In this document: in pieces, positions 15,001 through 18,000 of the stretch
Layout: every line of letters begins with the position of its first letter
How positions within the stretch are numbered: position 1 is the first letter of the stretch
Made by a program: the position numbers
Origin: Phycisphaerae bacterium
Lineage (GTDB): Bacteria; Planctomycetota; Phycisphaerae; UBA1845; Fen-1342
Length of the DNA: 64,000 nucleotides
Assembly: GCA_050115495.1 (NCBI GenBank)
Contig: JASFQK010000016.1
Location: forward strand, 32,001-96,000
Reading direction: 5' to 3'

Positions 15001-18000
15001 GCTGGCGCAGCAGGATTGCGATCTTGACGCGCTGCACGAGGCGTTGAGCGCGTTCGGCCGCAGCACGCTGCGTCTGGCCGAATTGGGCATTCGCGAAGCA
15101 CTGGTTCGGCCGGACAAGCCGGCGGCCGGCTAAGGAGATACGTAGTGGGCGGACGTAATCCATACATCGACCAGCCCGACGCGCCGCTGCCGACGAAGAA
15201 GTACACGATCACATTCATTGATGAAGAGCAGCAGCGGCACGTGGTCGAGGTCGATCCGGCCAATCCGCCGGCGAAGGTGACGGGTCGGCCGGGGAGCATC
15301 TTGTCGATCGCGCTCGCCCAGGGCGTCGAGCTGGATCATGCGTGTGGCGGGGTTTGCGCGTGTGCAACATGCCACGTGGTCGTGCGGGAGGGGTACGATT
15401 CGTGCAGCGAGCCGACGGACGCCGAAGAGGACCAGCTTGACGAGGCGTACGGTCTGACGGCGCAGTCGCGGTTGGCGTGCCAGTGTGTGCCGAACGGGGA
15501 GGAGGATTTGGTGGTGGAGGTGCCGAGCTGGAATCGGAATAAGGTGCGGGAGGAGCATTGAGGGGGGGAGGGGGGAGCCGTCAGCCGTCAGGTACGGGCC
15601 GTGAGCCGGAGTGTGGCATGCTGAAGCCTCTGGCGCCGGCATGTCTTTTTCTCGCGTCGGGGACTACATGCCGGCGCTGCGCTTCGGCATGCCACACTTC
15701 TGTCGATCATCGGTGGATGCTGGCACTGGTGGGCAAGCCACCGGTGGCACCCGGCGATGTAGCGGCCGACCTCCGTGTCGGACGTCGTTGGGCAACGCGT
15801 GTTTCGATCGGCGGTTGACGGATGGTTGGTTCAGCGCGCTTCGAAGCACACTGCTCAAGAGCAGTGGCACACCGGGAGATCACTCCGGGGGCGGGTTGGG
15901 CGCAAAAAAGCGGCCCGCCGGGGATAATGCCGGCGGGCCTTTTTTCTGGGGGCTGCCACTACGCAGCCACGTTCGCTGCGCTAGGGCAGCCACCGTTTAT
16001 CACTAGGCACTGGACCACCTCCTTTCGGAAAGGGCAACCTACGGCCTTCGCGGTCCAATAGCGACAGGCCGCTAAGCCCCGTCCGCCGGCCGTCGCCCGC
16101 GGACACAACGCGCGATGAACATCGCATCGCTCGGCCGGGCCTCCGTCACGTCCGCATCCCTCGCCCGTTGTTTGAGAGATGTCGGGGGGCGTACGGTGGC
16201 CCTGCACTATAAGTGTAGCCCGTTCAGCGTGTCCCGGCAAAAGAAAAGCGCGCCGGTCCCCCAAACGGCGCAATAATTGCTCGTTTCGGTCCTCGAACGT
16301 CCGCTTCAGTTCCGGCAGTCGGCGTCGCCCGCCGCTACTGCACGCCGTGCATCATCCGTTTCAGCGGTCGGATCAGCAGCGCCATCAACGCCGCCCCCAC
16401 GCCGCACATCACGACGAACATCAGGAAGTAGTTCGTCGGCGGCATCTGACCCCACCACGCTCCGAATACCTGGGCAAGCTTCTCGGCGATCGCCGTCGCC
16501 AGGAACCACCCACCCATGAAGAGGCCCACGTGCTTGGCCGGCGCCAGCTTCGTTACCAGCGACAGACCCACCGGGGACAGGCAGAGCTCGCCCATCGTCA
16601 GCACCATGAAGAACAGAATCAGCCACCACACGCTCACCCGGAACGTGGCTGAGGTCAGATACACGTAGTCCACCGCAGCCTTGAACGCCGGCTCGGCGGC
16701 CGCCGCCAGGAACTCGGTGCGGGCTCGCTCCTTCACTTCCGACAGGGCGGTCAGCGTCTTCGTCGCCGGATCCCACCGCAACACCGTCTTCCGGTTCTGC
16801 CCCTCGCCTTCCTCGATCTCGAGCACGCCTTCGGTTGCCGGCCCGTCCTCGAGCTGTATCGTCGGCGACTCGTTCGCGAAGGCGTCCTTCTCCGCTGTAC
16901 GCTCTGCGAATGCCTTCACCGCCTCGATGACCTCGGGCGGCGCGGTCTCCGCCAGCAGCCGGAACCGGTCGAGGTCGGTGAGCACGCCGTGCATGGTCAA
17001 CTGGTGCTGCTTCGCGTCGTACCGCAGACGTTTGGCTCCGTAGTACGTGCGCTTCTCCTGCTCTGCGGTGTACACGTGACCGTCGTCATCTACCGCCAGG
17101 CTGTCGGGCAGCGCCGACAGGGCGGCACTGCTCGCCCCGTTTTCCAGGTGCGCCGCCGGCCACATCACGCCGAACGCCACCGCCACCAGCGCCAGCCCCA
17201 TCACCATCTTCGTCGGTGTCGACGGCTGCCGCTTCCGCCGGTCCAGCCAGACCCAGAAGAACGCGGCCACGGGTGCCAGCGTGATGATGAAGAACGGGTT
17301 GAACGATTGCGTTTGCCCCGAGGTCATACTCGGGTTTCGGAACCAGCTTCCGATCGCCGCACCCCACCCACCGGCCGCCTGCGTCGTTGTCGCCTCCGCC
17401 TCGCTCAGCGTCACCGGTGGGGGTGTGGTCGATGCCAGTTGCAGATTCGTGTGCTTATCGGCCCACACCAGCATCGCGTTCGGGCTCTGCTCGAACGCTG
17501 TCCAGAACAGGATAATGAACGCGAAGACTACCAGCAGCACGATGATCCGGTCGCGCACCACGTGTGGCGGGTGCACTTCCGTTGGGTGTGCCTCCTCGTT
17601 CAGCTCGGTGTTGCCCAAGTCCTGGTTGAACTCGACCAGTTTGCGCTGTCCGATGATGTACACGATCAGGCCCGCCACCATGCCCACACCGGCGGCCCCG
17701 AACCCGTAGTGATAGCCGTAGTGCACGCGCAACCAGTCGCAGATGAGCGGACCGATCAGTGCCCCCAGGTTGATCCCCATGTAGAAGATGGTGAACGCCC
17801 CATCCCGCCGCGGATCCCCTGGCTTGTACAGGGCACCCACCTGCGTCGACACGTTCGGCTTCAGCAGCCCCACGCCAGCGATGATGAAGCCGAGCGCCGT
17901 ATAGAAGAACGGCAACGGCTCGAAAGCCATCAGGAAGTGCCCGATGGTCAGCAGGATCGCTCCGACCACCACCGCCCGCTTGGCGCCCAACCAGCGGTCG

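What a model noticed while it worked through the whole genome (the two positions that open the first line are those of the whole stretch)
15900..16210. A ~300-nt structured RNA carrying a near-perfect copy of the 16S anti-SD complement in front of a 6-12 codon micro-ORF
Between fdx and an MFS gene an uncalled minus-strand transcript with its own promoter and terminator folds into several conserved hairpins and holds AAAGGAGGUG(A/G)UC, a 13-14-nt complement of the 16S rRNA 3' end found nowhere else in the genome outside the 16S gene, followed by a micro-ORF (xPSDKRWLP here, xxSDK(Q/R)RWL in close relatives). It looks like a ribosome-binding RNA or micro-peptide mRNA conserved across order UBA1845.
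Evidence so far: 5 of 5 genus/family genomes, 11 of 35 order genomes; super-SD plus 6-12 codon ORF in all 11 aligned copies, 63 consensus pairs 86% canonical with 15 two-sided changes against 34-39% and 0-2 in slid controls; the 14-mer occurs only here and in the 16S gene; neighbours vary; only a partial Rfam match, to the SD stretch of Caulobacter CC2171 (31 bits vs cut 75, call 202).
(Added by a program. Inside this text positions count along the whole contig: contig position 32,001 is position 1 of the stretch shown here. "Call 12" and the like, gene names such as g00115 and contig names such as C1 are that model's own, and its searches are not shown. The text may have been shortened before it was handed on; [...] marks where a part breaks off. 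The agent that wrote the report below was given it as the finding of a first reader that could run no searches.)

Follow-up and report, generated by a model that had tools for sequence, protein, structure and literature searches.

The report
Double ribosome-docking RNA with mini-ORF
A stand-alone RNA of about 300 bases, present in most genomes of one planctomycete order, carries two landing pads for the tail of the ribosome's 16S RNA, one at the start and one just before the stop of a tiny reading frame; it resembles the little-understood 'rre' mini-messages and probably serves to catch and hold ribosomes rather than to make a peptide.

Summary
Real. Window 16205-15903 (-) has a promoter, a ~180-nt four-hairpin leader, a 17-nt complement of the genome's own 16S tail ending in a GUG, a 9-codon ORF whose stop lies in a hairpin, and a terminator. 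A covariance model finds it in 126 of 150 order genomes, single-copy in all but one. Exact RNA contigs from four metatranscriptome studies end at the predicted boundaries while the neighbours are uncovered (no strand, no DNA control). It works like the alphaproteobacterial rreB/rreR mini-mRNAs (PMC5711450) but is a separate family with a long leader and no conserved peptide. Added here: a second SD-like stretch sits 6-10 nt before the stop codon, moves with the stop and holds up in held-out copies. The same layout appears in Rfam CC2171, Rfam Ms_IGR-5, Acidobacteriota and others, with that stretch read in all three frames. Best reading: the RNA docks a ribosome and holds it again at termination; the peptide is incidental. 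Ribosome binding and function are untested here. The scan noted the same kind of RNA before on other DNA (e1-6786274).

The parts
16212..16240 (-). Predicted sigma70-type promoter, TTGCCG-17-TACACT; alternative GGGACA-18-TATAGT at 16235-16206
   Evidence: 1 site, 0.2 expected in shuffles; 39 of 41 order copies have their best promoter-like site 150-215 nt before the SD; RNA contigs end at 16196-16199.
15903..16205 (-). Whole predicted RNA, about 300 nt
   Evidence: Fold z -5.16; model R1 180.7 bits; exact RNA contigs 15939-16199 and 15938-16196.
16135..16205 (-). Leader hairpin P1 (long, variable sequence)
   Evidence: Single-sequence folds of 16 copies; covariation not tested; fixed-window z median -1.0, 16 of 70 below -2.
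16106..16132 (-). Leader hairpin P2
   Evidence: Single-sequence folds; not recovered by RNAalifold.
16081..16103 (-). Leader hairpin P3 with GACG-type loop
   Evidence: 8 of 8 pairs with two-sided changes, 94.4% of cells paired.
16031..16080 (-). Leader domain P4/P5; its apical loop (16060-16050) is complementary over 11 nt to the 3' half of SD1 and the start codon (possible pseudoknot masking the ribosome-binding site)
   Evidence: support is stronger in the own family than in held-out families.
16010..16026 (-). SD1: 17-nt complement of the 16S 3' end (one G.U)
   Evidence: duplex -30.4 kcal/mol against -9.2 for AGGAGG; matches the 17c region in the rreB primer except at the G.U position.
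15981..16010 (-). Micro-ORF GTG...TAG, VPSDKRWLP (9 codons)
   Evidence: translation not shown.
15990..15998 (-). SD2: second, weaker SD-like stretch, its GGUG ending 7 nt before the stop
   Evidence: Register score -9.1 at distance 7; family tests.
15951..15991 (-). Hairpin P6 (nested GCUGC/GCAGC stems) holding the stop codon in its 5' arm
   Evidence: About 98% of cells paired but mostly invariant, so little covariation.
15903..15939 (-). Intrinsic terminator (10-bp stem, T run); also reads as a terminator on the + strand
   Evidence: 3 of 6 pairs with two-sided changes; RNA contigs stop at 15938-15939.

Best explanation
An rre-type mini-mRNA whose job is done by the RNA and the ribosome on it, not by the peptide. 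(1) It is transcribed alone and is probably abundant (boundaries supported by RNA contigs; level inferred). (2) The mostly free 5' end of SD1 seeds pairing with the 16S tail and zips up to 15-17 bp, displacing the leader loop that can mask it (inferred from folding and from rreB experiments). (3) The over-long duplex and the mostly GUG/UUG start make initiation slow (shown for rreB, inferred here). (4) After 6-13 codons the ribosome opens hairpin P6 and reaches the stop; SD2 is then at the same distance from the P-site codon as SD1 was at initiation, so the 16S tail can pair again and hold the terminating or post-termination ribosome (placement shown by sequence, holding inferred). Most likely outcome: a ribosome-holding RNA that keeps a small pool of 30S/70S, with its own turnover depending on termination and recycling. 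The leader stabilises the RNA and gates access.
For: Start kept: GTG 41, TTG 27, ATG 17 in 85 parsed held-out copies, lengths changing by whole codons. SD2: stronger than shuffled ORFs in all 8 sequence groups and in 78 distinct held-out ORFs, -8.95 against -5.17 +/- 0.26, 67 of 78 at or below -5; ordinary genes -4.53. In the 18 copies with a 6-7-codon ORF it moves with the earlier stop (peak -11.3 at distance 8). A metagenome pattern with no start or frame returned 115 distinct hits: 115 stops and no TGG (TGG in 29 of 51 control sites); in-frame start in 104 against 28 and 2 for the other frames. The same GAGGUGGC is read as E-V-A, R-G-G or R-W-L in different lineages. Codons are the SD-forming rare ones: Ile AUA 61 of 70 and Arg AGG 49 of 93, against 2.6% and 2.3% in the genome. 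Downstream genes: 26 same strand, 23 opposite, unrelated families. rreB binds 30S, is weakly translated and its decay needs the start codon (PMC5711450). Ms_IGR-5 homologs carry Ribo-seq reads (PMC4974804 passage).
Against: No ribosome-binding, translation or phenotype data for this family. Twenty-fold overexpression of rreB did not affect growth, and its authors doubt simple ribosome sequestration. The 3' half of SD2 is often also the foot of hairpin P6, so part of its conservation may be structural. The 6-10-nt window was chosen by eye before testing, the metagenome pattern was written after seeing the Ms_IGR-5 consensus, and kin are not independent. SD2 in this genome is weak, and 11 of 78 held-out ORFs score above -5. 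RreB and RreR peptides are conserved within their clades. Loop-SD pairing is only modestly above shuffles in held-out copies (10.2 against 9.34 +/- 0.18) and shows no two-sided change in the aligned columns. The Ribo-seq paper also saw reads on tRNAs.
Confidence: 0.55

Rival explanations
1. The micro-peptide is the effector; the double SD and hairpins only keep its synthesis low or conditional.
For: Start, frame and stop are kept in all 88 held-out copies; most end in L-[P/L/R]; RreB and RreR are conserved within clades.
Against: Length 6-16 codons within the order, and 18 of 41 copies stop before the conserved L-P; penultimate codon CUG in 92 of 98; near-single-codon use for Ile, Gly, Cys; three reading frames for the same nucleotides across lineages; synthetic RreB and RreR are unstructured.
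Confidence: 0.2
2. A trans-acting regulatory or protein-binding RNA: the structured leader does the work and the bound ribosome only protects the RNA or ties its lifetime to translation.
For: About 180-nt leader with covarying P3; C/A-rich loop able to pair with SD-like sequences; rreB half-life depends on the start codon.
Against: Alphaproteobacterial members have a leader of about 14 nt yet share the core; the leader is the least conserved part; protection alone would not need a fixed stop with SD2.
Confidence: 0.17
3. A cis-acting leader-peptide attenuator or riboswitch for a downstream gene.
For: Short ORF with rare codons, then a hairpin and a terminator, as in attenuators.
Against: Here the next gene downstream is the convergent fdx end; across 49 loci the downstream gene is on the opposite strand in 23 and of unrelated families; I saw no antiterminator but did not search for one systematically.
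Confidence: 0.03
4. Type I toxin mRNA with a super-SD (recalled from Bacillus systems, not looked up).
For: Strong SD, structured untranslated regions, small ORF.
Against: 6-13 residues, not hydrophobic, single chromosomal copy in nearly all genomes; rreB overexpression harmless.
Confidence: 0.03
5. A relic of antisense 16S sequence or a chance strong SD with no role.
For: The 18-nt motif alone also occurs inside or before ordinary genes (L097, L128, L162, L269).
Against: Conserved across the order with covarying stems, kept frame and discrete RNA contigs.
Confidence: 0.02

Closest known systems
rreB / rreR small mRNAs of Alphaproteobacteria (Hahn et al., RNA Biol, PMC5711450; main text parts 1-4 of 6 and supplement part 1 of 2 read)
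   Same: Stand-alone small transcript with promoter and terminator; 16-17-nt complement of the 16S 3' end ending in the G of a GTG; short ORF; SD partly masked by pairing with a free 5' seed; genomic context not kept between lineages.
   Different: Different phylum; about 300 nt with a 180-nt four-domain leader against 165 nt with a short leader; 6-16 codons with shifting stop against clade-conserved 14 and 18; GTG, TTG or ATG start; no detectable homology beyond the SD (alphaproteobacterial loci at most 21 bits with R1). In the text I read the paper mentions no second SD.
Rfam RF01867 CC2171 (Caulobacter sRNA)
   Same: Consensus begins with the same SD-GUG block; 5 alphaproteobacterial loci from my motif scan pass its cut-off and carry 21-25-codon ORFs, so CC2171 appears to be an rre gene.
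   Different: This RNA scores 30.8 against 75 bits; no long leader; different ORF and 3' fold.
Rfam RF02471 Ms_IGR-5 (Actinomycetota sRNA, described as uncharacterised in the passages read)
   Same: Consensus shows SD1, then GAGGUG, 9 nt, UAG and a hairpin; 12 of 13 hits over the cut-off parsed to a 12-14-codon ORF with GAGGUG 9 nt before the stop.
   Different: No match to this locus at E<=0.05; model has no long leader; SD1-start spacer 6-11 nt; SD2 read as E-V-A/T.
prfB frameshift site (internal SD before an in-frame stop; search listing only, otherwise recalled)
   Same: An SD inside an ORF acting on a ribosome with a stop codon in the A site.
   Different: There the SD is closer and drives a +1 shift into a long ORF; here spacing is initiation-like and no long ORF follows.

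Membership tests
rre genes (rreB/rreR) | At least 16 nt complementary to the 16S 3' end, reaching the first base of the start codon | tested here: met
   17 nt with one G.U here. In 85 held-out copies the run is 16 nt in 27, 15 in 31, 10-14 in 27, so many relatives fall short of the strict 16.
rre genes (rreB/rreR) | GTG start followed by a small ORF | tested here: met
   GTG and 9 codons here; relatives use GTG, TTG or ATG.
rre genes (rreB/rreR) | Stand-alone transcript with own promoter and terminator | tested here: met
   strand not shown by the contigs.
rre genes (rreB/rreR) | Peptide conserved within the clade | tested here: not met
   6-16 codons, two stop positions, nucleotide-level codon bias.
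rre genes (rreB/rreR) | Sequence homology and short leader as in rreB | tested here: not met
   Leader median 181 nt against 14; alphaproteobacterial loci at most 21 bits with R1.
rre genes (rreB/rreR) | 30S co-sedimentation, weak translation, start-codon-dependent decay | not testable with these tools
   Needs fractionation, reporters and half-lives.
Rfam CC2171 | Score at or above 75 bits | tested here: not met
   30.8 bits.
Rfam Ms_IGR-5 | Score at or above 45 bits | tested here: not met
   No match at this locus; best in the genome 17.3 bits elsewhere.
Leader-peptide attenuator / cis-regulatory leader | Co-oriented, functionally coherent downstream gene | tested here: not met
   26 same, 23 opposite of 49; unrelated Pfam families in 78 of 96 flanking ORFs scanned.
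Housekeeping RNAs (tmRNA, 6S, RNase P, SRP) | Model match at this locus, or the gene missing elsewhere | tested here: not met
   No match here; tmRNA, 6S (45.7 bits, just under 46.4), RNase P and small SRP lie elsewhere.
Type I toxin-antitoxin | Hydrophobic membrane peptide | tested here: not met
   6-13 mostly polar residues.
Type I toxin-antitoxin | Antisense RNA | not tested
   Contigs give no strand.

The most novel reading that the evidence does not exclude
This RNA, rreB/rreR, CC2171, Ms_IGR-5 and unnamed RNAs of Acidobacteriota, Gemmatimonadota, Methylomirabilota and others are one old, unrecognised class of abundant 'double-SD' RNAs that load a ribosome and park it at a stop codon: an RNA-based ribosome storage device or termination/recycling gauge present across many bacterial phyla, with the planctomycete form adding a gating leader.
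Probability: 0.3. Interest if true: 0.9.

Novelty: new variant of a known kind. Interest (0 to 1): 0.7.

Why it matters
The function of rre mini-mRNAs was left open in the 2016 paper, which found them only in Alphaproteobacteria, and CC2171 and Ms_IGR-5 appear as uncharacterised sRNAs in the passages I read. A near-universal, expressed family in a planctomycete order that keeps the frame but not the peptide points to the ribosome interaction as the selected trait. The second SD at a fixed distance from the stop gives a sharp test (a ribosome held at termination) that can be run in Caulobacter, Bradyrhizobium, Streptomyces or Mycobacterium smegmatis.

Tried and rejected
Exact SD patterns badly undercount: 26 of 151 order genomes with one mismatch (2 of the 26 were not homologs), 12 of 201 class, 17 of 251 phylum, 7 of 151 in an Acidobacteriota sample (one precedes a 197-codon gene), against 126 of 150 by model. 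Viral scan: 36 hits, mostly coding matches or captured host rre genes, none of this family. R1 hits at or below about 27 bits are not counted as homologs because the antisense 16S scores 27; this affects the weakest of the 22 of 103 other-class hits and all non-Phycisphaerae scores except two at 34-36 bits. RNAalifold did not recover P2, P4 or P5 on the MAFFT alignment; P1 covariation was not tested. Uncovered flanks in the RNA runs do not show that the flanking genes are silent, and contig depth (9979, 16.8, 34.9, 7.1) is not an expression measure. Dropped rows: L015 and L025 (not homologs); L234, L238, L214, L228, L094, L148, L186 (not parsed); 4 ORFs over 30 codons before the SD2 test; L018 and L019 left out of alignment A2; L482 not parsed. 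The script stopped after 16 copies. Scan look-ups by sequence, by relatives and by SD2 words found nothing.

Full report
Observation. The element lies on the minus strand between the end of an isc operon (Rrf2 regulator, HscB, Hsp70, 2Fe-2S ferredoxin by Pfam; the IscS, IscU and IscA names for the genes between them are my recall) and a POT/MFS transporter. It has a promoter-like site and a two-way terminator, folds far better than shuffles (z -5.16) and is single-copy in the genome. The 14-mer occurs only here and opposite the 16S 3' end; the complement is in fact 17 nt with one G.U and ends in the G of the GTG that opens a 9-codon ORF. tmRNA, 6S, RNase P and SRP RNA genes lie elsewhere.

Expression. 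Four metatranscriptome runs from four studies hold exact contigs at 15939-16199, 15938-16196, 16000-16197 and 15999-16196, with no other letters. In the 6-kb stretch laid, the other listed pieces are short, and those over the Hsp70 gene mostly carry mismatches and loose ends (62 pieces were not shown). The 5' ends fall 6-9 nt inside the predicted start and two 3' ends at the terminator stem. These are contigs: no strand, no level, no DNA run beside them, and the runs were found with this stretch. It is a fair hint of a discrete RNA, not proof.

Spread. A model built from the 3' 240 nt of 39 copies finds strong full-length hits in 126 of 150 order genomes, 34 of them training genomes, with two copies in only one, and hits in 22 of 103 genomes of other orders in the class, the weakest being doubtful. 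Neighbours are unrelated and randomly oriented, so it is not a cis leader. The best promoter-like site lies 150-215 nt before the SD in 39 of 41 copies. Structure: 36 named pairs are 92.3% canonical against 31-53% when slid; P3 covaries in all 8 pairs; P6 is nearly invariant and so uninformative; the count of pairs with a two-sided change does not separate from slid controls.

The frame matters, the peptide probably not. In 88 copies not used for the model, 85 parsed directly: start GTG 41, TTG 27, ATG 17, ORFs of 6-13 codons; the other three show the same layout by eye. Lengths change by whole codons and the stop falls either in the hairpin arm or just before it; 18 of 41 first-set copies have only 6-7 codons. 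Among 117 distinct ORFs Ile is AUA in 61 of 70, Arg AGG in 49 of 93, Gly GGU in 94 of 128, against 2.6%, 2.3% and 12% in this genome's long ORFs.

A second SD before the stop. By eye, a GAGGUG-like stretch precedes the stop by 6-10 nt. Scored in register against the 16S tail, it beats shuffled ORFs in all 8 groups, including RreB-type, RreR-type and other alphaproteobacterial loci, and in 78 distinct held-out ORFs (-8.95 against -5.17 +/- 0.26; 67 of 78 at or below -5). Long genes of this genome give -4.53. Where the stop comes earlier the stretch comes earlier too. A metagenome pattern asking for SD1, SD2 and TRR but for no start or frame gave 115 distinct hits, all true stops and no TGG, with an in-frame start in 104 against 28 and 2 in the other frames; most of the other 11 have an in-frame CTG by eye. 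The same nucleotides are read E-V-A, R-G-G or R-W-L. Limits: the window was picked after looking, the pattern after seeing the Ms_IGR-5 consensus, kin are not independent, the stretch often doubles as the hairpin foot, and this genome's own SD2 is weak (-9.1). At distance 7-9 the spacing to the P-site codon is 4-6 nt, matching the SD1-start spacing of 4-5 nt in this family; that it holds a terminating ribosome is inference.

Leader loop. The apical loop of the last leader domain can pair with SD1 or the start: 11 bp here, mean score 12.3 against 9.05 +/- 0.30 for shuffled loops in 41 copies, own partner better than swapped in all but 1 of 5000 permutations. In 84 held-out copies the effect is smaller: 10.2 against 9.34 +/- 0.18, 35 against 25.6 with 5 bp or more. 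I count it as moderately supported.

Known relatives. Hahn et al. (PMC5711450; main text parts 1-4 of 6 and supplement part 1 of 2, figures not visible) describe rreB: 165 nt, 17-nt 16S complement ending in a GTG, 14 codons, bound to 30S, weakly translated, decay dependent on the start codon, no growth effect on 20-fold overexpression, analogs only in Alphaproteobacteria. My GTDB scan (120 loci, capped) gave an ORF of 30 codons or fewer in 113, mostly alphaproteobacterial, but also Planctomycetia, Phycisphaerae, Acidobacteriota, Gemmatimonadota, Krumholzibacteriia, Methylomirabilis, Lujinxingiaceae and Burkholderiales. Five of the alphaproteobacterial loci tested pass the CC2171 cut-off. An Acidobacteria and a Methylomirabilis locus pass the Ms_IGR-5 cut-off, whose consensus shows both SDs and the UAG; 13 of 81 genomes of an Actinomycetota sample pass it and 12 of the 13 parse to the same layout. 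Passages read call IGR-5 validated but uncharacterised (10.1101/2021.12.14.472595), list it as transcribed (PMC10454040, PMC8079986, PMC8780764) and report Ribo-seq reads on it (PMC4974804); CC2171 is detected by Northern blot with no known trigger (10.1101/2022.01.24.477521). Passages of PMC5082802, PMC10117765 and PMC13009471 added nothing on rre. Whether the families share ancestry or converged is open: beyond the SD blocks they do not align.

In print? Ten full-text searches (CC2171; rreB with Shine-Dalgarno; extended SD with small mRNA; SD-like or internal SD with stop codon; planctomycete small RNA; the motif letters; IGR-5; Ms_IGR-5) showed no paper on a planctomycete member, on the second SD, or linking these families; most results I saw only as listings. 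The library lacks most subscription journals, the original CC2171 and IGR-5 papers were not seen, and bioRxiv supplements are closed, so tables of small ORFs could hold these frames. The scan itself noted a similar 300-nt RNA with a 12-codon frame on other DNA and a start-less phage variant; I had found rreB before that look-up. Unpublished genomes: G559 is 1 of the 9 other-phylum loci and 1 of 7; G744 is 1 of the 13 and 12; G774 and G727 count only among the 24 weaker matches.

Verdict. A real, order-wide and probably expressed RNA; works like rreB, is not a member of rreB, CC2171 or Ms_IGR-5; new variant of a known kind. Best reading, at 0.55: a ribosome-docking RNA that holds the ribosome at both ends of a throw-away ORF. 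Interest 0.7.

Noticed in passing
window 15600-15860: A cluster of REP-like palindromic repeats between fdx and the RNA's terminator, with up to 144 similar pieces in the genome; gives the spurious mir-4854 Rfam match.
   Followed up: partly
L043:301-351 and L062:301-363 (viral contigs): The full SD-GTG block in front of lysine-rich micro-ORFs of 11 and 15 codons in phage contigs; layout differs from host rre genes.
   Followed up: no
L162 (Streptomyces sp.) and L269: The complete motif in front of ordinary ORFs (51 codons, looking like a ribosomal peptide precursor; 197 codons), so the long SD alone does not identify the class.
   Followed up: no
L272, L274 (Acidobacteriota sample): ORFs start xxxDK(R/H) with the same GAUAAAC as this family, and their leaders have similar blocks; R1 scores only 24-29 bits, so homology is open.
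   Followed up: partly
Ms_IGR-5-type loci, e.g. L476-L480: A GGAC inside the ORF can pair with the GUCC end of SD1, a possible in-ORF mask doing the job that the leader loop may do here (seen by eye).
   Followed up: no
L485, L486, L488 and 9 metagenome hits: In-frame CUG where a start codon is expected, suggesting non-canonical initiation behind the long SD.
   Followed up: no
L094: An RreR-type element on a contig labelled Cytophagales; probably a mis-binned alphaproteobacterial contig.
   Followed up: no
G000:C30:61478-61662: 6S RNA candidate at 45.7 bits, just under the Rfam cut-off of 46.4.
   Followed up: no
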